IMG/VR virus record: IMGVR_UViG_2534681705_000018
Location: 1-14,535 of that record
From: a virus
Taxonomy: Duplodnaviria > Heunggongvirae > Uroviricota > Caudoviricetes
Direction: 5' to 3' (one strand)
DNA length: 14,535 nt
Shown: positions 6,988-14,535 of the stretch, in pieces
Layout: the number at the start of each line of letters is the position of its first letter
How positions within the stretch are numbered: the stretch's first letter is position 1
The notes under the pieces: model-generated
What the model was told of the DNA's origin: nothing
What the model saw: the letters and a program-made list of their open reading frames with translations, nothing else
Databases searched by the model: none
Program-made: the position numbers and the translations under genes

Positions 6988-7290
6988 TTATTCACACTAT
7001 TCCATTTTGATTGTGAACAGTCGTGAATAGTTAGTGAACAGTTTTTTAATAACTGTTCACTATGTTTTTTAGTTTAAAATCATATGGTTATTTTGTTTCA
7101 GTGAACAGTTGAACAGTTACCCCCTATAGAATTTAATTTGCAGTGAAAATGATTCACTGTTACAAGTTACAATGCGTTTTAAAAGTTTTAGCCGAAACTG
7201 TTCACGGCGTTCATTTCGTCGATGAATCCAGTAATGACGCAGCTTTTAGAGGTGAACACTACTGTTCACCACTGTTCACCACTGTTCACT
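6988..7290. repeat. replication-origin-like iteron region: about 10 direct and inverted TGTTCAC(C) copies, an AT-rich spacer, and a perfect tandem ACTGTTCACC x3
   Basis: Direct copies at 7054, 7199, 7263, 7273, 7283; inverted at 7013, 7034, 7101, 7252; palindrome TAGTGAACAGTT/AACTGTTCACTA (7032-7062). TGTTCACC is the P4 alpha-protein type I iteron as I recall; location just 3' of the primase gene. Confidence 0.65.
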
Positions 7291-9058
7291 TTTCATGGAT
7301 TTTTGGCACAGCGGGTAACCATTCATTAGCACTGTCAGCCAGCTCCATGTTGTAGCGCATTCCGACATTGGTCTTTGCCTTCTTATACTCAGCCCCATAT
7401 TCTTTCATCACTTTTGGGAAATCTTTGCCAAAATTAGTTAGATTTAATGGCTTATCGAAACCATAAGCATCCATATATGCAAGATATGCATGGTAAAGAT
7501 AAATTCGAGGGGCTCTTGGATATATATTCAGGTTTCCCATGAACATTCCTACAGCTTCACCAAGTTCGACAATATGGTTACAAAAAGCATATAGCGGATC
7601 AGTATGGCGTTTTACTTCCATTGCTTCTTCACCATCACGTTGCTCGAGCAGTAATGTTCTTGCTTTTTCGGGATCTGAAAAATTTACCAACAGCCTACGG
7701 ACTATTACCGGAATTTCCGCTGCAATTTTTTTGGGTAAACATGTGTCCTTGTTTTCTTCCGCTATCGGATTATTGAACTGAAAAATAACCCTACGGCGTG
7801 AAATACCTCCCGCTCTTTCTGTAAAAACCATCGGTTTATTATTTGTTATCAAAACAACTGAGCGTAAGACAGTGGTGTATCTTTTTTCATATTTCGGGTT
7901 AATTTGCAGAGGATCCCCACCTGTTATAGCTTTAATACCATTACCTTCACCAAAATATTTAGGTTGGTCCGGTAAAATAATCAGACTTTTACCAACTAGT
8001 TGCTCACGTCCACCAGCATCATCTAACGCTTTCATATCACTGCCTGCGGTGTTCTGCTCACCCGCCAACATTCTGGCAATTTGAGTAAACATACTTTTAC
8101 CACTTCCACCTTCGCCAGTTGCTTCAATGAATAATTGCCAGTCGTAGCGATTAGCCAAAACCATAAACAGAGCAGCACATATCCGCTTCATCTTTGATGA
8201 ATCGTATCCTGCTGCATGTGACAGCCAACGATGAAAATGGGGCGCATGGTCATGAATATTTTCACCAGGCGCAGGTGGCGTATAATAAATTCCATTATGC
8301 GAAGTGATCCAGTGCTCTGGTGAATGAGGTAAAAATCTACCACTTGTTATGTCATAAACTCCATTTTCAAAAGGTATTATGGTGTCACTCTGTTCTCTCA
8401 TTACGGGTACAGATATTTTTAAAGCATCAACCGCATTACTAATTGCCCGCTTACTGAAATTTGTCTTGTTTTTTTCGTAAATTGATACCATTTTACGACT
8501 CAACTCCATATCAGATATTTTTTCCCACACTCCAGAACAGTATGCATAAGCAAAATTGTTACCAGGGTGAACAGCTATTTCCTCAAAGCATTCAGCCAAA
8601 AGTGAAGCTCGCTCGTTATCCGCCATTCTGGAAAGAGAGATTTTGTGTTTTTTCTCAGTCCTTCCTGACAGAATATCCCCGCGCTCTGCCTGTTCGCGGA
8701 TCCGTTGCAGGTAATCGCGCCAGTTCTCCGGTTCCCGGTCGGTGATGCCTTTGTATAATTTCGCCTCCTGTACGCCAGCCAGCGCCAGCTTTTCAGCGAT
8801 AGCATTGATCTGGATTGGTTCGATCTCCCCCGCGAGATAGACACGCGCAAAGCGGCGTTTCTCGTCAATAATGCGGATATTCGCCAGGTCTGCCAGTTGC
8901 TTTGGCCCCAGGTAAACAGGTGGTACGTTATCGCCGTGTTTTCGTCCTTCGCTTTCAATCCAGTGTTGAGCATGGGAGTAAGCGTCCGTCCCGGCAAAAA
9001 TGATTACCTCGGTGAATTTATCCTTCGGCTGATATTTTAAATTCGGTGCGTTTTTCAC
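7286..9058 (-). CDS. P4-family primase / D5-like SF3 helicase replication protein (590 aa)
   Basis: Walker A GEGGSGKS in mid-protein; overall organisation of phage/plasmid primase family; GTG start at 9058 overlaps upstream stop (GTGA). Confidence 0.8.
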   Translation of the reverse strand: MKNAPNLKYQPKDKFTEVIIFAGTDAYSHAQHWIESEGRKHGDNVPPVYLGPKQLADLANIRIIDEKRRFARVYLAGEIEPIQINAIAEKLALAGVQEAKLYKGITDREPENWRDYLQRIREQAERGDILSGRTEKKHKISLSRMADNERASLLAECFEEIAVHPGNNFAYAYCSGVWEKISDMELSRKMVSIYEKNKTNFSKRAISNAVDALKISVPVMREQSDTIIPFENGVYDITSGRFLPHSPEHWITSHNGIYYTPPAPGENIHDHAPHFHRWLSHAAGYDSSKMKRICAALFMVLANRYDWQLFIEATGEGGSGKSMFTQIARMLAGEQNTAGSDMKALDDAGGREQLVGKSLIILPDQPKYFGEGNGIKAITGGDPLQINPKYEKRYTTVLRSVVLITNNKPMVFTERAGGISRRRVIFQFNNPIAEENKDTCLPKKIAAEIPVIVRRLLVNFSDPEKARTLLLEQRDGEEAMEVKRHTDPLYAFCNHIVELGEAVGMFMGNLNIYPRAPRIYLYHAYLAYMDAYGFDKPLNLTNFGKDFPKVMKEYGAEYKKAKTNVGMRYNMELADSANEWLPAVPKIHEK

Positions 9059-9550: not shown

Positions 9551-9908
9551 GATTCACCCCCTGAATAACCTGATAACCGCAACTGGTCAGCAATTCGATA
9601 AATTCCGGCAATGTGCCGAAACAGTAATCATCACGCAGACGTTCGCGGGATACTTCAACGCCGTTTTCGTAGTGACTCACCATGCGTCCGGTAAAATGCA
9701 GATCATCATCGTGATGGCACGTTAACGGCTTAATCAGTCGCGCACGTTCTGCCAGTTCCAGCAATGCTTCAACGCTTCCGGCAATTGCACCATCCGGCAG
9801 GTTGTAATTACGCACTATGCGCCCGTTCTCCACATGGACCAGTAGCTGCCCGGTAAATTTCTCGTCAAACTGAATGCGGTTAAGGTCGGTAAGTGACAGG
9901 TTAATCAT
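9543..9908 (-). CDS. 121-aa protein carrying two tandem copies of the same small domain
   Basis: FDEKFTGQLLVHVENGRIV and LHFTGRMVSHYENGVEV; ATG 9908 overlaps upstream stop. Confidence 0.55.
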   Translation of the reverse strand: MINLSLTDLNRIQFDEKFTGQLLVHVENGRIVRNYNLPDGAIAGSVEALLELAERARLIKPLTCHHDDDLHFTGRMVSHYENGVEVSRERLRDDYCFGTLPEFIELLTSCGYQVIQGVNHG

Positions 9909-10104
9909 GGCGTACCTCCTGACGAATACGGGCGGCGAATACCATCACGCAGCCATCAGGAGATTGCTGGCGTGCTTCCTGTTCGCTGGTGGCCTCGATG
10001 TGAATCACGCGCGGTTGTGCCGTGCTCAGAGCGATAAAACGCCAGATGTATTTATTCAGGTTGTGCGAGTCCCGCCCTTGCGGGTGTGTGGTATGATTTC
10101 TCAT
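9901..10104 (-). CDS. small 67-aa protein, first gene of the leftward operon; tentatively Icd/Kil-like
   Basis: ATG 10104 with GAGGT Shine-Dalgarno; IWRFIALSTAQ...VMVFAARIRQEV resembles my recollection of Icd-like proteins (unverified); in frame with the C-terminus of the 402-aa track ORF. Confidence 0.4.
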   Translation of the reverse strand: MRNHTTHPQGRDSHNLNKYIWRFIALSTAQPRVIHIEATSEQEARQQSPDGCVMVFAARIRQEVRHD

Positions 10105-10297
10105 AGCTACCTCGATAATCTTGCTATCGTTGGTGGTTAGAAGCTCTGCGAGTGGTAACGACACTTGCGGGGCTTTGCCTTTAAGGTGCAAGTCACCTTT
10201 GAGGGTTATGCTACTTTTAGGTGACTTGCACTTCAAGCCTTTTTTTATTTTTTTTTCTACGTATACTGAACGCCACCTAACAGTAAGGAGGCCAGTA
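10105..10297. promoter_or_regulatory. divergent promoter/operator region with 13-bp inverted repeat AGGTGCAAGTCACCT (10184-10198) / AGGTGACTTGCAC (10219-10231) and a T-rich tract (10241-10257)
   Basis: Read directly; lies between the leftward operon and a rightward gene with AAGGAGG Shine-Dalgarno; candidate -35/-10 (TTGAAG-N17-TAGCAT) on the minus strand overlaps the repeat. Confidence 0.55.
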
Positions 10298-10477
10298 ATG
10301 CCAACGGGTACAACCAACAACAAATCACAACAAAAAACGGCTAGAATCCCTCTAGAAGTTTTAAGCGAAATGAATTTGGTCAAAGAGGAAAACGAAACAG
10401 ACGCGCAGTTTATCGTTACAGCCATGCGTGGCGAGATCAAACGCCGCCAGCGCCGCAAGGCCAAAGAACAGGAGTAA
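10298..10477 (+). CDS. small 59-aa basic protein, possibly ribbon-helix-helix-like; candidate element repressor
   Basis: Near-consensus Shine-Dalgarno AAGGAGG 6 nt before ATG 10298; strand-helix-helix pattern (ARIPLEV / LSEMNLVKEEN / AQFIVTAMRGEIKRR); only clear plus-strand gene in the element. Confidence 0.5.
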   Translation: MPTGTTNNKSQQKTARIPLEVLSEMNLVKEENETDAQFIVTAMRGEIKRRQRRKAKEQE

Positions 10478-10534
10478 CCATCACCAGCGCCGTGGTGTGA
10501 GGAACTACGGTGCATCGTTTTACAGGGCAGCGCC

Positions 10535-10714
10535 ATGACCAACAAAGAATCAACCAAAACACCATCACCAACTCGTAAGAGACGACGCAAAAATATAGCG
10601 CATGAACATGAATCAGAAAGATTCGCACCTTGTTCGTTTGCTCTTGAGAAATTCCTTAAAGAGCACAGGAAAAAGCTCTCGTTGCAAACCTTGGAACGAA
10701 CCAAATCTGACTGA
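10535..10714 (+). CDS. possible 59-aa Lys/Arg-rich ORF downstream of the RHH-like gene
   Basis: ATG 10535, weak Shine-Dalgarno; followed by a plus-strand terminator; not in ORF track. Confidence 0.3.
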   Translation: MTNKESTKTPSPTRKRRRKNIAHEHESERFAPCSFALEKFLKEHRKKLSLQTLERTKSD

Positions 10715-11109
10715 TCACATTGCCCACCAGCCGCAAATGTGGCATTGTTGGTGATGCGTTCAAGTATGTAGCTTTTCCACTGGCGGCTCTCTGCGGTCGC
10801 CTTTGTTTTATCCAGAACGAAATCAGACATCAGATTGATCAGCACCTGGCGACCTGACAAAATCGCATCAGTCGCGCCACCAGCAAAATTTTTTGCTTTC
10901 CGGACAGCGTGGCCAACGATATTTTGCAGCAAAATATTCTGCATTTCTGGCGTGCTGTGGCGACGGTGATCAGCGCCTTCACATTGAACGAACTTGTCGC
11001 TAAAATTCACCCACATAGCAAACATCGCGGTGCTGTAGGTAATTCGTTCACAAAGGCGCTCCGGCAACGGGGCGCTTTCTCTTTTTGTAACGGTCAGAGC
11101 GTTACACAT
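10715..11109 (-). CDS. N-terminal part of the 402-aa track ORF (9901..11109); plausible gene of unknown function whose true 3' end is unresolved
   Basis: ATG 11109 overlaps the AntA stop (ATGTGTAA); first ~130 residues protein-like, but the middle of the 402-aa frame looks non-coding and is antisense to the plus-strand module. Confidence 0.3.
10782..10809 (+). terminator. candidate Rho-independent terminator for the rightward transcript
   Basis: GGCGGC-tctctgc-GGTCGCC stem-loop followed by TTTGTTTT. Confidence 0.4.
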
Positions 11110-11950
11110 GGCTGTTTTCCTCCATGCGACGGGCTAACCAACGCTGCGAAAGACGAATTAATTCAGCCTTCCGCTGGTGGTAGTCCTGGCCTAACTCAAT
11201 CAGCGTGATATTGCTCTGCTCAAGGTAAGAAAGGTGCTCAAGCTGCAACGTGCTCATGTGGTCGCGTGGTTCGCCTGTAATGCCGTTCGCCAGTGCCCAC
11301 TGTTTTGCAGTCATGCCACCCAGCACGATACGCGCCAGCATGTTCGCTTCCGTGGTGTAGTGGTGCTGGAGTGTGTTTTTACCCAGTTCAGCCCGGTACG
11401 CCTCCAGCGCGGCACACATTGGCTTAAAGTAGCTGGCAACTGTGATACGGGCTTTCAGTTCCCGGCGTAACGCTGCGGAACGCACTGGCGCTACCTTGTG
11501 TAGCTCCTCCTCGCATTTGATAAAGTACTGGCGAACGGCGCGGCCCTGTTCGGTACGTTCGACCATCGCCAGTTCTTTCGCCATGTTCGTGGAGATCAAA
11601 TAGTCTTCACTGCGACGATCACCGCCGCGCTTTGTTGTCCAATCAAAATCAAACTGTTCAATATTTACACTTTGGTTCCCCCGTTTCGGGGAATCAAAGT
11701 ACAAATTTTCTACAACTTCAAAATCCACGCCATTTTTAAATCCGTACTCATCAATACGTCCTTTAATCCAGGTAGTGAAATCACGGCCTACCCCGAGCGC
11801 CTTATGCAACGCTCTGGCGCTAACAATATTGGTTTCACGCCCGCCAATAACGCCGGAAATAACCGGGATAATTTCGCCAAAATTTTGCAGATTCTGGTTT
11901 TCAGGCCGAACGAAGCCCTGCCCCTGTACGGGCGTTTTTCGCAGTTTCAT
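11102..11950 (-). CDS. phage antirepressor, AntA/AntB-type N-terminal domain (282 aa)
   Basis: IPVISGVIGGRETNIVSARALHKALGVGRDFTTWIKGRIDEYGF matches recalled AntA domain pattern; AGGAG Shine-Dalgarno before ATG 11950. Confidence 0.7.
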   Translation of the reverse strand: MKLRKTPVQGQGFVRPENQNLQNFGEIIPVISGVIGGRETNIVSARALHKALGVGRDFTTWIKGRIDEYGFKNGVDFEVVENLYFDSPKRGNQSVNIEQFDFDWTTKRGGDRRSEDYLISTNMAKELAMVERTEQGRAVRQYFIKCEEELHKVAPVRSAALRRELKARITVASYFKPMCAALEAYRAELGKNTLQHHYTTEANMLARIVLGGMTAKQWALANGITGEPRDHMSTLQLEHLSYLEQSNITLIELGQDYHQRKAELIRLSQRWLARRMEENSHV

Positions 11951-12028: not shown

Positions 12029-12226
12029 TCAGGTAGCTGTTCCGCGTGATTCAGCAATACGCTGATTAATCCACTCGTCAATTTCACTCTCAACGAAAGC
12101 AATCGCTCGCGAGCCAATTTTAACTGATGCAGGAAATTTACCTTGCCCCATAAGGCGATAAATCCATGCCTTGCTATATCCAGTTCTACGCTGAACTTCC
12201 GTTAAACGAATAAGCGTATTTGACAT
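12029..12226 (-). CDS. alpA: AlpA/Vis-family phage transcriptional regulator or excisionase-like HTH protein (65 aa)
   Basis: IRLTEVQRRTGYSKAWIYRLMGQGKFPASVKIGSRAIAFVESEIDEWI is the typical AlpA-family winged HTH; GAGGT Shine-Dalgarno; family-level assignment only. Confidence 0.8.
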   Translation of the reverse strand: MSNTLIRLTEVQRRTGYSKAWIYRLMGQGKFPASVKIGSRAIAFVESEIDEWINQRIAESRGTAT

Positions 12227-12294
12227 ATATTTACCTCATAACGTCTACTCAATTTGACGAGGTAATCATGGCACAGAAATAACGAATATTTTCA

Positions 12295-12444
12295 TACCCT
12301 CAGGCCTAATGGTAATCGGGAATATTTTTACCCTAAGGGTAATAGTAAAATTGATGGGAAAGCATACAAAAATACCCTAAGGGTGAGGTCTGATTACCCT
12401 TAGGGTGAGACGCGAACAAAACATGAGATACCACTAGGGTAAGG
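12295..12444. promoter_or_regulatory. array of five copies of palindromic motif TACCCT(A/T)AGGGT(A/G) immediately upstream of alpA
   Basis: Copies at 12295 (degenerate), 12328-12343, 12373-12385, 12394-12410, 12429-12444; each an inverted repeat TTACCC-N3-GGGTAA. Confidence 0.7.
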
Positions 12445-12446
12445 CT

Positions 12447-13193
12447 TCATCGTTTGATAGGACAGGCGACAAGCTCAATAGATGCGGCCTGTCGGGAGGT
12501 AAAACCTCGTTTTTCAAGCTCAGTAGTAATCGCGCCCTGGTTTCCCCTGGTGGCGCGCTCATTTTCCGGATCGTAATTGGCCCACTCTCTGTTTCTAATC
12601 TCGATAGCCAGATACAATGGGTCATCATCTCTGTATTTATTTAATAGAATTGGACGTTCGCTTTCGAGTTTGCGGATTTGCTCTTTAAGTGAAGAAATTT
12701 CCGCAAGTAACACTTCAATATTCTGTTCATCATCCAGAAACTCATTATCAACCACATCAGAAGTTGGTAGAGTTATTTCACTTAATGGTAAAAATAAATC
12801 AATGCCTATTTTCTCTGCAAATTCTTTAAGTTCTGCACGACGAAACCCATGCTTATCAAAAAGGCTTGCCGACCATCTTACATCACAATTTTGAAAAGGT
12901 GCGAATAATGCTATAGGCACACTATTTCTTTCACGAATAACTTCCAGGAGGTCTGTTAAAGTAGGGGCACTATTATATTGATTGGAAAGATCGACATATG
13001 TTGATTCAATAGTACCGGCAATACCTTGCTTAACCCATTCAGGAAGTTCAATCGCACATTCTTTCAAGTAAAGAAAATCTGCAATCTGTGAATAACTAAC
13101 ATGCGGTTGATGTAATTGAATACGAGTTATCAACTCCCTCAGGCTAATAAACTCCCACTCCCTTGCTTTAAGCACTTCGGCAATATCAATCAT
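12447..13193 (-). CDS. hypothetical 248-aa protein between integrase and alpA, coiled-coil near C-terminus
   Basis: Track ORF 12447..13274 opens on GTG; ATG 13193 has GAGGTG Shine-Dalgarno 7 nt upstream; no motif recognised. Confidence 0.55.
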   Translation of the reverse strand: MIDIAEVLKAREWEFISLRELITRIQLHQPHVSYSQIADFLYLKECAIELPEWVKQGIAGTIESTYVDLSNQYNSAPTLTDLLEVIRERNSVPIALFAPFQNCDVRWSASLFDKHGFRRAELKEFAEKIGIDLFLPLSEITLPTSDVVDNEFLDDEQNIEVLLAEISSLKEQIRKLESERPILLNKYRDDDPLYLAIEIRNREWANYDPENERATRGNQGAITTELEKRGFTSRQAASIELVACPIKR

Positions 13194-13320
13194 ACGCACA
13201 CCTCGGCGTCCTCTGTAGTGGTGGCTGTGCCAGCCCGCAGAGGTGTACGGGTTTTCAGGAGCGACCCTAGACACAGCCTTTTCTTAATCGCTCAAAGTCT
13301 ACTACTGTATACTCAACCAG

Positions 13321-14535
13321 TCACCCGCATTTTCCGAACTCACCATGCACCACATTTCCGCCATGCTCGAGCGAATCCATATAGTCGGCATACCACTGGA
13401 GCATCTCCCGGCGACCATCCAGATATTGCGCATGGTTGTATGTGCCACGAATTGAGTTTTTATCGACGTGTGCGAGCTGTGTCTCTATCCACGCGGTGTT
13501 ATAGCCCTGCTCATGCAAAATGGTGCTCATGGTGTGCCGGAATCCATGACCAGTAACGCGCCCGGCATAGCCGATACGACGAATGAGCACATTCATCGCC
13601 ATTTCACTCATTGGCTTACTGTGGTGAATACGACCGGGGAAAATAAACTGATACTGGCCTGTCATGTTTTTTAACTGCTCCAGTATTTTTATCGCCTGTT
13701 CTGGTAATGGCACACAATGCGGACGGCGCATCTTCATTCGTTCTTTAGGCACTTCCCACAAACGATTATCAAAATCGATCTCCAGCCATTCTGCCTGCCG
13801 TAATTCCCCGGGTCTGACACCTGTCAGAATTAATAGCCGCATTGCCAGTTTGACGATCTGGCTTCCGGTGTACGTATTAAAAACGCGGAAAAATTCCGGC
13901 AGTTCGTCGGCTTTCAAATAGGCGTAATGCTCTTTTTTATGTGGAGCAAATGCGCTCACCAGGTCAGGGGCTGGATTATATTCGGCGCGTCCGGTGATGA
14001 TTGCGTACCGGAACACCTCGCCGCATCGCTGGCGAACCTTACGCAATTTTTCAGTCGCACCACGGTCATTAAGACGGGAAAGAACCGCCAGCAATTCCAT
14101 CGGCTTAATTTCTGCGATCGGCCTACCGCCAATGTACGGAAAAACATCTTTTTCAAACGTCTCGATCATTTCCTCGGCGTATGACGATGACCACCTGTCG
14201 ATCCGCTTTTCGTACCATTCGCGAGCAATACCCTCAAAAGTATTGCCAAATTTGCTCGCCTGTTCTCGCTTTTGGGCTTTTCTGGCCTCACTTGGATTTA
14301 TACCACCAGCAAGAAGCCTTTTAGCCTCATCCCTTGCCGCCCTGGCATCAGACAGAGACACATCAGGGTATACCCCCAACGACAACATTTTGGGCTTTCC
14401 TGCAAACCTGTAGCGCAGTCGCCACCCTTTCGAACCGTTCGGCTCAATGAGCAACGAAAGCCCGTTACCGTCATTGAGTGTATAAGCCTTTTCTTTCGGC
14501 TTCGCGCGCCTGATGGCAAGGTCTGAAAGCAGCAT
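13321..14535 (-). CDS. int: P4-type tyrosine integrase (site-specific recombinase), 404 aa, start at or just beyond the right edge
   Basis: N-terminal arm-binding-like region (LSDLAIRRAKPKEKAYTLNDGNGLSLLIEPNGSKGWRLRYRF); C-terminal catalytic boxes HGFRHT and RGTYNHAQY (tyrosine nucleophile). Confidence 0.9.
   Translation of the reverse strand: MLLSDLAIRRAKPKEKAYTLNDGNGLSLLIEPNGSKGWRLRYRFAGKPKMLSLGVYPDVSLSDARAARDEAKRLLAGGINPSEARKAQKREQASKFGNTFEGIAREWYEKRIDRWSSSYAEEMIETFEKDVFPYIGGRPIAEIKPMELLAVLSRLNDRGATEKLRKVRQRCGEVFRYAIITGRAEYNPAPDLVSAFAPHKKEHYAYLKADELPEFFRVFNTYTGSQIVKLAMRLLILTGVRPGELRQAEWLEIDFDNRLWEVPKERMKMRRPHCVPLPEQAIKILEQLKNMTGQYQFIFPGRIHHSKPMSEMAMNVLIRRIGYAGRVTGHGFRHTMSTILHEQGYNTAWIETQLAHVDKNSIRGTYNHAQYLDGRREMLQWYADYMDSLEHGGNVVHGEFGKCG

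What the first reader, a model, noticed from the sequence alone, without database searches (positions are those of the whole stretch)
12295..12444. Five palindromic TACCCTAAGGGTA operators upstream of alpA
A 13-bp perfect palindrome repeated five times in 150 bp just upstream of the AlpA-family gene implies cooperative binding by a dimeric regulator at the element's induction control point. The binding protein cannot be determined from sequence; AlpA itself, the RHH-like protein or a helper-phage protein are candidates.
Basis: seen in the sequence. Interest (0 to 1): 0.65.

Follow-up and report, generated by a model that had tools for sequence, protein, structure and literature searches.

The report
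Operator array upstream of satellite alpA
A phased row of ACCCTnAGGGT palindromes in front of a phage satellite's master switch gene (alpA) is real and deeply conserved, and it travels not with AlpA but with an uncharacterised protein encoded just upstream, which is therefore the likely binder and a testable candidate for how such satellites control induction.

Summary
The repeats are real but overstated. There is one exact TACCCTAAGGGTA (12329-12341), copies with 1, 1 and 2 mismatches (12373-85, 12395-407, 12429-41), and a fifth element that is a 20-bp variant palindrome (12295-12314). Chance expectation is 0.13 matches against 7 found.

The core ACCCTnAGGGT survives in diverged relatives while the spacers are randomised. 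Site centres sit 22, 33, 43, 55 or 64 bp apart, so on one face of the helix.

Loci with identical AlpA carry three different upstream arrays, and loci with AlpA only 25% identical keep this one. The RHH-like YlcI/YnfO protein, AntA and integrase type show no association. No phage record encodes a relative of the co-occurring domain.

The array does co-occur, 12 of 12 loci against 0 of 71, with the C-terminal domain of the gene just upstream (12447-13193). That protein has a variable N-terminus, a leucine-zipper-like coiled coil and a conserved helical domain ending IExVACPIKR, with no family or fold match. The pairing holds in 56-64% G+C hosts.

Most likely this protein binds the array as a dimer and sets alpA transcription. 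The sign is unresolved; geometry slightly favours activation. Binding is inferred, not shown.

The parts
12295..12314 (.). Promoter-proximal 20-bp variant palindrome TACCCTCAGGCCTAATGGTA (the same half-sites, 8 bp apart instead of 1)
   Evidence: Relatives conserve it as a variant, e.g. CCCTCATGCCTGAGGGTA, and it ends 23-24 nt upstream of the predicted -10 in all of them.
12329..12341 (.). Site S4, exact TACCCTAAGGGTA
   Evidence: Conserved column block in the 7-locus alignment.
12373..12385 (.). Site S3, TACCCTAAGGGTG
12395..12407 (.). Site S2, TACCCTTAGGGTG, 22 bp from S3. On the minus-strand RNA, S2 and S3 can pair into an 11-bp hairpin followed by AUUUUUGU.
   Evidence: (I5).
12429..12441 (.). 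Site S1, TACCACTAGGGTA (2 mismatches), starting 5 nt after the stop codon of gene X
12265..12273 (-). Predicted extended -10 of the alpA promoter (TGcCATGAT) with no good -35. This is an inference, not a mapped start site.
   Evidence: The motif TGnNATNAT preceded by a T-tract is conserved at this position across families. The consensus scan finds no full sigma-70 promoter.
12231..12266 (-). Conserved inverted repeat in the alpA leader (ATTACCTCG...TATGAGGTAA) that would pair with the Shine-Dalgarno GAGG
   Evidence: Present in array-bearing and array-less loci alike.
12029..12226 (-). alpA (65 aa), the regulated gene
   Evidence: Pfam Phage_AlpA 69 bits, HTH_17.
12447..13193 (-). Gene X (248 aa from ATG 13193): a variable N-terminal part (a separate ORF in some relatives), a coiled coil (about 12657-12731) and a conserved C-terminal domain (about 12450-12626) ending IELVACPIKR. 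Proposed binder of the array.
   Evidence: No hit in Pfam, NCBIfam, PHROGs or PADLOC. Homologues are all 'hypothetical'. AF2 gives an all-helical model, pLDDT 78. Co-occurs with the array.
13210..13277 (-). Rfam int-alpA RNA motif (RF02996), here the leader of gene X rather than of alpA
   Evidence: 47 bits, gathering score 35.8. Same position in L002, L013, L028, L084 and L030.
13321..14535 (-). Tyrosine integrase (runs off the window end)

Best explanation
The palindromes are the operator array of the protein encoded immediately upstream, gene X (12447-13193).

Inferred steps:
- X dimerises through its leucine-zipper-like coiled coil.
- Its conserved C-terminal helical domain reads ACCCT half-sites.
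- Dimers occupy the four 13-bp sites cooperatively on one face of the DNA.
- Cooperativity loads the weaker 20-bp variant site that abuts the -35 position of a weak, extended -10 alpA promoter.
- Occupancy of that last site sets alpA transcription, and with it induction of the satellite, because AlpA is the master activator of Gram-negative PICIs (PMC6092414).

Shown here: the sites, their conservation, their phasing, and their exclusive association with the X C-terminal domain. Inferred: binding, dimerisation, the promoter position and the sign.

Given that X binds, my split is about 50% signal-gated class-II-type activation, 35% repression or roadblock, 15% something else. The variable N-terminal part would be the input domain, possibly sensing the helper phage.
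For: (1) The sites are non-random.

(2) Phylogenetic footprint. In seven arrays, the neighbouring X domain has only 62-67% nucleotide identity to the window in the five of them that one search compared, with 23-30 of 56 codons differing only synonymously. The conserved columns are the four palindromes, the proximal element, the -10 region and the leader hairpin. The spacers are not conserved.

(3) Centre-to-centre spacings cluster at 22, 33, 43, 55 and 64 bp. The resultant length is 0.84-0.86 at a period of 10.5-11 bp, from 121 gaps in 40 unique arrays.

(4) Association. The X C-terminal domain is present in 12 of 12 array-bearing loci and 0 of 71 array-less loci. In an earlier count on the genome loci, which scored array presence at up to 1 mismatch, 7 of 9 domain-bearing loci and 0 of 68 others had the array, Fisher p = 1.5e-8. 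33 of 47 viral-contig hits to a double site carry X, array and alpA.

(5) Dissociation from AlpA in both directions.

(6) The pairing survives in very distant members from 56% and 64% G+C hosts. In L145 every hit in the locus lies in the spacer right after the X-like stop codon; in L146 three of four do, and the fourth overlaps the last bases of the gene. It also survives in L121, which has no alpA downstream.

(7) A paralogous C-terminal domain (hhalign probability 95.5%, E 1.4e-8) comes with different repeats. A third, unrelated upstream gene family comes with ACTTCCA direct repeats.

(8) The coiled coil fits dimer binding to dyads.

(9) Geometry. The proximal site ends 23-24 nt from the -10 in all families, the -35 is weak, and the strongest sites are upstream.
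Against: - Gene and array are physically adjacent, so co-inheritance inflates the association, and the loci are not phylogenetically independent.
- The helix-turn-helix-like stretch of the domain varies between subfamilies while the site does not, so the recognition surface is unknown.
- The Mannheimia homologue (41% identity) lacks the motif.
- The promoter is predicted, not mapped.
- The experimentally studied EcCICFT073 has no gene X, so published induction data do not bear on it.
- No consensus promoter lies between int and X. X may therefore be made constitutively with Int, which sits awkwardly with an unconditional activator.
Confidence: 0.6

Rival explanations
1. Same binder, opposite sign. 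X is made constitutively with Int and keeps alpA silent. It would do so by occluding the -35 and upstream region, and by acting as a roadblock to read-through from int and X. A helper-phage protein would inactivate it through the variable N-terminal part, in the manner of SaPI Stl.
For: - The first site lies 5-15 nt after the X stop codon in most loci.
- No consensus promoter or terminator lies between int and X, or between X and alpA, on the coding strand.
- In L121 the array follows X with a convergent gene downstream, which fits an insulator.
- A quiescent satellite needs alpA off (PMC6092414).
Against: - No site overlaps the predicted -10 or the start site.
- The promoter-proximal site is the weakest and the strongest sites are upstream.
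- The precise 23-24 nt distance to the -10 and the poor -35 are typical of activator-dependent promoters (general knowledge of class II activation).
Confidence: 0.3
2. The palindromes are AlpA's own sites for positive autoregulation or excision.
For: AlpA activates its own promoter in EcCICFT073 and EcCIMP1 (PMC6092414, PMC11773190). The sites lie upstream of alpA.
Against: - Identical AlpA occurs with three different upstream repeat sets (L027, L028, L030).
- An E. coli AlpA 63/65 identical to this one has no palindromes upstream.
- An AlpA-like protein at 25% identity (L145) and an HTH_17-like one (L146) sit behind the same array.
- L121 has the array without a downstream alpA.
- The only DNA conserved in all alpA loci is the core promoter and leader.
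Confidence: 0.05
3. A helper-phage protein or a conserved host regulator binds the sites, and gene X is merely a linked cargo gene.
For: Helper phages induce alpA transcription by an unknown factor (PMC6092414). X has no recognisable DNA-binding fold.
Against: - No array and no X-like domain in 50,697 phage or 72,556 plasmid records.
- The motif follows the X domain across hosts from Enterobacterales to 64% G+C bacteria, where neither a shared host factor nor a shared helper is plausible.
- Other upstream gene families carry other motifs behind the same AlpA.
Confidence: 0.12
4. The repeats act at the RNA level. As the 3' untranslated region of the X transcript, pairs of palindromes fold into hairpins that terminate or structure the transcript before alpA.
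For: On the minus-strand RNA, sites 12395-12407 and 12373-12385 form a perfect 11-bp stem followed by AUUUUUGU. The spacer folds with z = -2.2. The common E. coli variant has a U7 tract after the same pair.
Against: - The U-tract is absent in most other lineages.
- Central-base complementarity of the 22-bp pairs is 7/18, against 8/36 and 5/24 for the other spacings, which is not distinctive.
- Helical-turn phasing and conservation of all 4-5 sites are not explained by a single hairpin.
- This could still be an added role in E. coli.
Confidence: 0.1
5. The RHH-like YlcI/YnfO protein encoded at about 10300-10477 (+) binds the array.
For: Ribbon-helix-helix proteins bind repeated sites as dimers (general knowledge). 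The gene is on the element.
Against: It is present in only 1 of 12 array-bearing loci and in 17 array-less loci.
Confidence: 0.02

Closest known systems
SaPI Stl (Rpr) master repressor and its operators in Gram-positive PICIs
   Same: A satellite-encoded, modular DNA-binding protein sits at the induction switch. Its variable non-DNA-binding part could receive the helper-phage signal.
   Different: Stl has an N-terminal HTH, is transcribed divergently from the genes it controls, and is a proven repressor. X is co-directional, lies between int and alpA, has a C-terminal domain with no known fold, and its sign is unknown. No homology was detected.
AlpA-centred induction of Gram-negative PICIs (EcCICFT073, EcCIMP1)
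   Same: The same element type (int, alpA, Bro/AntA zone, DUF4222, D5-type primase, PerC, ProQ) and the same control point, the alpA promoter.
   Different: In the published systems AlpA autoactivates and an unidentified helper factor induces (PMC6092414, PMC11773190). EcCICFT073 has no gene between int and alpA, and its spacer carries ACAAC repeats with a 10-bp period, not these palindromes. The array here does not track AlpA.
Activators that fill phased upstream sites and then a weak site next to -35 (MelR at pmelAB, BvgA at ptx/fha, lambda CI at PRM). Recalled from general knowledge, not tested.
   Same: Several helically phased dimer sites, the strongest ones upstream, a weaker or variant site abutting -35, and a promoter with a poor -35.
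   Different: Unrelated proteins. Here neither the promoter nor the binding is demonstrated.
Genes of unknown function between int and alpA in PICMI satellites (iolg/icg; PMC10803314)
   Same: The same genomic slot. There are many unrelated families of unknown function, and iolg is needed for excision.
   Different: iolg overlaps int. No operator array is described there, and homology to X was not tested.
Rfam int-alpA RNA motif (RF02996)
   Same: A conserved non-coding element of the same int-alpA interval, present in this window (13210-13277).
   Different: It lies upstream of gene X, about 770 nt from the array. The array matches no Rfam family.

Membership tests
Operator array for a cooperative dimeric DNA-binding protein | Dyad-symmetric sites in excess of chance | tested here: met
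   7 matches against 0.13 expected. 3 exact cores against 0.12 expected.
Operator array for a cooperative dimeric DNA-binding protein | Sites conserved while the flanking spacer diverges | tested here: met
   7-locus alignment. Adjacent coding DNA at 62-67% nucleotide identity.
Operator array for a cooperative dimeric DNA-binding protein | Spacing in whole helical turns | tested here: met
   Gaps of 22, 33, 43, 55 and 64 bp. Resultant length 0.84-0.86 at 10.5-11 bp. The loci are not independent.
Operator array for a cooperative dimeric DNA-binding protein | Defined position relative to a mapped promoter | tested here: inconclusive
   The proximal site ends 23-24 nt from a conserved TGnNATNAT motif, but the scan finds no consensus promoter and no start site is mapped.
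Operator array for a cooperative dimeric DNA-binding protein | Demonstrated protein binding | not testable with these tools
   Needs EMSA, footprinting or ChIP.
AlpA autoregulatory or excisionase sites | Sites co-occur and co-vary with the AlpA protein | tested here: not met
   Identical AlpA behind different arrays. AlpA at 25% identity behind the same array.
SaPI Stl-type master repressor module | Regulator with a recognisable HTH, divergently transcribed from its target operon | tested here: not met
   X is co-directional with alpA. No HTH or other family is detected.
SaPI Stl-type master repressor module | Regulator inactivated by a helper-phage protein | not testable with these tools
   Needs interaction and induction assays.
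Intrinsic terminator | G+C-rich hairpin directly followed by a U-tract, conserved in relatives | tested here: inconclusive
   An 11-bp stem plus AUUUUUGU in the window. The U-tract is missing in most other lineages. The scanner reports none on this strand.
Integrase arm-type sites / attP | Track the integrase type and lie near the attachment site | tested here: not met
   Array-bearing loci carry integrases 37-66% identical to this one, while 80-81% identical integrases lack the array. The array is more than 2 kb from the tRNA-Gly end.
Dispersed repetitive extragenic palindromes (REP/BIME-like) | Many copies scattered over the genome | tested here: not met
   Median of one place per E. coli genome that has any. 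There are no other copies in the window or, with one or two stray hits, in related loci.
bZIP transcription factor (the PGAP name of one homologue) | Basic region plus leucine zipper above the Pfam threshold | tested here: not met
   bZIP_2 scores 16.7 bits against a cut-off of 22.3 and matches the zipper part only. The window protein has no hit.

The most novel reading that the evidence does not exclude
Gene X and its array are the missing input stage of Gram-negative PICI induction. X would belong to a modular family (variable N-terminal sensor, zipper, a previously unrecognised DNA-binding domain) that detects a helper-phage cue and switches alpA on or off through a phased operator array. 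The many unrelated gene families in the int-alpA slot, each with its own repeat motif behind the same AlpA, would then be interchangeable 'helper-specificity cassettes'.
Probability: 0.3. Interest if true: 0.8.

Novelty: new variant of a known kind. Interest (0 to 1): 0.6.

Why it matters
How helper phages turn on alpA, the master activator of Gram-negative phage-inducible chromosomal islands, is an explicitly open question (PMC6092414; PMC10803314). This analysis gives one class of these satellites a concrete cis element and a concrete candidate trans factor. That class is present in about 148 of 5,426 complete E. coli genomes, including O104:H4 outbreak strains, and in Salmonella, Klebsiella, Proteus and others.

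It also gives simple experiments to test the idea. It assigns a likely role to a protein family that has no annotation anywhere. And it suggests that the variable genes between int and alpA are regulators with private operators rather than passive cargo.

Tried and rejected
- Family searches for gene X in Pfam, NCBIfam, PHROGs and PADLOC found nothing.
- A profile search against PDB sequences returned only coiled-coil noise.
- AlpA, YlcI/YnfO, AntA and integrase were rejected as binders by the co-occurrence tables.
- A helper-phage origin of the motif or of the domain has no support. The domain also has no match in plasmid records.
- An RNA-structure reading was tested by central-base complementarity and U-tract conservation. 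It has weak support and is not conserved.
- A literature search for the motif and for the int-alpA interval found no description.
- I tried to infer the sign of regulation from X-less elements (Xenorhabdus loci, EcCICFT073). Their promoters are not comparable.

Full report
**What is in the sequence**

The window is a phage-satellite island with all genes on the minus strand:
- integrase, 13321-14535, cut by the window end;
- an unannotated gene, here called X, 12447-13193;
- alpA, 12029-12226;
- an AntA-family gene, 11102-11950;
- a DUF4222 gene and a D5-type primase, 7286-9058;
- ProQ/FinO-like and DUF2213 proteins.

A near-identical island sits next to tRNA-Gly in E. coli RMDEC465.

The 220-bp spacer between the stop codon of X and the ATG of alpA holds these elements:
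- one exact TACCCTAAGGGTA (12329-12341);
- TACCCTAAGGGTG (12373-12385);
- TACCCTTAGGGTG (12395-12407);
- TACCACTAGGGTA (12429-12441);
- nearest alpA, a 20-bp imperfect palindrome TACCCTCAGGCCTAATGGTA (12295-12314).

At up to 2 mismatches there are 7 strand-matches against 0.13 expected, and none of 200 shuffles reaches that number. The three exact ACCCTNAGGGT cores all lie within 77 bp, against 0.12 expected for the whole window. 'Perfect palindrome repeated five times' is an overstatement.

**Is it functional DNA?**

I collected relatives in several ways:
- E. coli genomes;
- 80 loci around AlpA homologues from one genome per species;
- a scan of viral contigs for two cores 9-39 bp apart;
- look-ups of contigs encoding homologues of X.

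Seven arrays were aligned. For the five of them compared, the neighbouring coding DNA is only 62-67% identical to the window. The conserved columns are the four palindromes, the proximal 20-bp element with the following TATGAAAATA, a T-tract, a TGnNATNAT motif and an inverted repeat in the alpA leader. The spacers are not conserved.

Over 40 unique arrays the consensus is TyACCCTnAGGGTAw with a free centre base. The centre-to-centre distances fall at 22±1, 33±1, 43±1, 55±1 and 64 bp. The resultant vector length is 0.84-0.86 for a period of 10.5-11 bp. These loci share ancestry, so this is not a probability.

Site number varies from 3 to 6, in part through 33-bp tandem duplications that keep the phase. 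This is the signature of protein-binding sites occupied on one face of the helix.

**Who binds?**

*AlpA is very unlikely.*
- L027, L028 and L030 encode identical AlpA proteins. Only L028 has the palindromes; the other two have different repeats.
- An E. coli island at the same tRNA-Gly site has an AlpA 63/65 identical to this one, with no palindromes upstream.
- Conversely, an AlpA-like protein only 25% identical (L145) and one merely HTH_17-like (L146) lie behind the same array. L143 (25%) keeps only ACCCT half-sites and L134 (35%) has none.
- One locus (L121) has the array with no alpA downstream.

*Other element proteins show no association*.
- The RHH-like YlcI/YnfO protein is found in 1 of 12 array-bearing loci and in 17 array-less loci.
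- AntA and integrase type are likewise unlinked.

*Phage and plasmid records hold nothing similar.* Phage records contain neither the array nor a relative of the domain described next, and plasmid records contain no relative of that domain.

*The C-terminal part of gene X does track the array.*
- It is present in 12 of 12 array-bearing loci and 0 of 71 array-less loci by tblastn.
- An earlier count, which scored the array at up to 1 mismatch, found it in 7 of 9 domain-bearing genome loci and 0 of 68 others, Fisher p = 1.5e-8.
- 33 of the 47 viral-contig hits carry X, array and alpA. Most of the rest are unrelated tandem repeats from other organisms.

Adjacency alone could produce such linkage, but three facts argue for more.
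- The domain is under strong purifying selection: 23-30 of 56 codons differ only synonymously from the window copy. The DNA just beyond the stop codon has kept nothing but the sites.
- The pairing persists in very distant members, from hosts with 56% and 64% G+C, with different N-termini and different downstream genes. In L145 every core match in the locus lies in the spacer right behind the X-like gene; in L146 and L147 three of four do, and the fourth overlaps the last bases of the gene.
- A paralogous C-terminal domain (hhalign 95.5%, E 1.4e-8) is followed by different repeats (GGTGG-type). An unrelated third family of upstream genes is followed by four to six ACTTCCA direct repeats, all in front of the same AlpA.

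**What is X?**

It has no match in Pfam, NCBIfam, PHROGs or PADLOC. All homologues are 'hypothetical'. A full HMM search of 1.84 billion representatives finds 74 clusters. The conserved domain is always at the C-terminus, behind diverse and equally unannotated N-termini.

The common form is about 150 aa, preceded by a separate ORF of about 100 aa. In the window the two are fused.

PGAP calls one homologue a 'bZIP transcription factor'. This rests on a sub-threshold match to the zipper only. It is not evidence of membership, but it agrees with a dimerising coiled coil. DNA binding by X is therefore an inference from comparative genomics, not from a recognised fold.

**How it probably works**

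The conserved TGcCATGAT (12273-12265) preceded by a T-tract is the best candidate for an extended -10. The consensus scan finds no complete sigma-70 promoter, and the -35 position is poor.

With that assignment, the proximal 20-bp element spans about -56 to -37. The four 13-bp sites are centred near -77, -121, -143 and -177. The 23-24 nt distance from the proximal element to the -10 is kept in every lineage, including the distant L145 and the paralogous family.

This geometry points to one reading: strong upstream sites, a weaker variant site abutting -35, a weak -35 and nothing over the -10 or the start site. It is what one sees at promoters activated by cooperative filling of sites, as at MelR, BvgA or lambda PRM. 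That comparison comes from general knowledge and was not tested.

Other facts point to the opposite reading. The array begins 5-15 nt after the X stop codon. No consensus promoter or terminator separates int, X and alpA. L121 has a convergent gene after the array. Together these fit a protein that is made with Int and keeps alpA silent by occlusion or roadblock.

I commit to 'X binds and sets alpA transcription' at 0.6. Within that, I put activation gated by a signal through the variable N-terminal part at about 50%, repression or roadblock at about 35%, and something else at 15%.

In the window and the common E. coli variant, the 22-bp-spaced pair can also fold in the X transcript into an 11-bp hairpin followed by a U-tract. 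This may add termination, but it is not conserved elsewhere.

**Comparison with what is known**

[quoted passage not shown] It activates its own promoter and is induced by helper phages through an unidentified factor; no repressor is known (PMC6092414; PMC11773190).

The reference island EcCICFT073 has no gene between int and alpA. Its spacer carries ACAAC repeats with a 10-bp period, so the published experiments do not address this module.

The PICMI paper notes 13 families of unknown genes in the same slot and asks how the helper activates the early regulon (PMC10803314). I found no paper that mentions the motif or the protein.

The thing is therefore ordinary in kind, an operator array with a cognate regulator at a mobile element's switch. 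It is new in its parts: an unannotated DNA-binding candidate family, its recognition sequence, and the idea that the int-alpA slot holds interchangeable regulator-operator cassettes.

**Verdict**

Cooperative dimer operators at the induction control point: yes. The proposed binders: no.
- Novelty: a new variant of a known kind.
- Interest: 0.6, because it makes an open question about satellite induction directly testable.

Noticed in passing
window 13210-13277 (-): The Rfam int-alpA RNA motif (RF02996, 47 bits) lies between int and gene X, ending 17 nt before the X start codon, not next to alpA. The same placement upstream of X-type or XN-type genes is seen in L002, L013, L028, L084 and L030. 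It may be a regulatory leader of gene X.
   Followed up: partly
window 12231-12266 (-); all alpA loci L004-L042: A conserved inverted repeat in the alpA leader (consensus CTCGTAAACC-N-TTACGAGG) would pair with the Shine-Dalgarno GAGG. It is present whatever lies upstream, so it is a candidate translational control element or the true AlpA site.
   Followed up: partly
L005, L010, L011, L021, L030, L031, L034, L040, L050, L068 (about 220 nt upstream of alpA): A different family of genes in the int-alpA slot (C-terminus ...KALTxLIxEAL) is followed by 4-6 direct repeats of ACTTCCA. A family with a paralogous C-terminal domain (...AVNLVLRP) is followed by GGTGG/ACCATT-type repeats. Each regulator-like gene seems to bring its own motif.
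   Followed up: partly
L142 8188-8252 and 8449-8473 (E. coli CFT073, EcCICFT073): The reference PICI has no gene between int and alpA. Its spacer contains six to seven ACAAC-containing repeats with an exact 10-bp period.
   Followed up: no
window 9900-11100: Relatives carry isrK and C4 antisense RNA genes (a P4/P1-type immunity region) downstream of alpA and antA (L027, L028, L030, L084). The window gives no such Rfam hit at gathering score. The 402-aa ORF 9901-11109 looks spurious, and RMDEC465 annotates Icd-like and frameshifted ash fragments here.
   Followed up: no
L003, L110 and other E. coli loci: The number of sites varies (3 to 6) through tandem duplication of a 33-bp unit (ACCCTTAGGGT plus spacer), which preserves helical phase. 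L045 has lost all but one site.
   Followed up: partly
L149 2402-3199 (E. coli GPEC1366): PGAP names one X homologue 'bZIP transcription factor' while near-identical proteins are 'hypothetical'. The name rests on a sub-threshold leucine-zipper match.
   Followed up: yes
L133 (IMG/VR contig of 126,890 bp): An unrelated large viral contig carries 21 exact ACCCTNAGGGT cores in 8 kb, often as TTTACCCTGAGGGTAAATA. This is probably that phage's own regulatory or promoter motif.
   Followed up: no
window 12298, 12332, 12376, 12398: Four of the five elements (all but 12429-12441) contain CCTNAGG, which I recall as the Bsu36I/Eco81I-type restriction site. Four of the six occurrences in the window are in the array. 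This is probably a by-product of the operator sequence.
   Followed up: no
L134 3840-4002 (Mannheimia haemolytica): The most distant X homologue checked with alpA downstream (41% identity) lacks ACCCTnAGGGT. Instead it has two TTATTCCC(C)GATATT repeats about 32 bp apart, plus a terminator-like hairpin.
   Followed up: no
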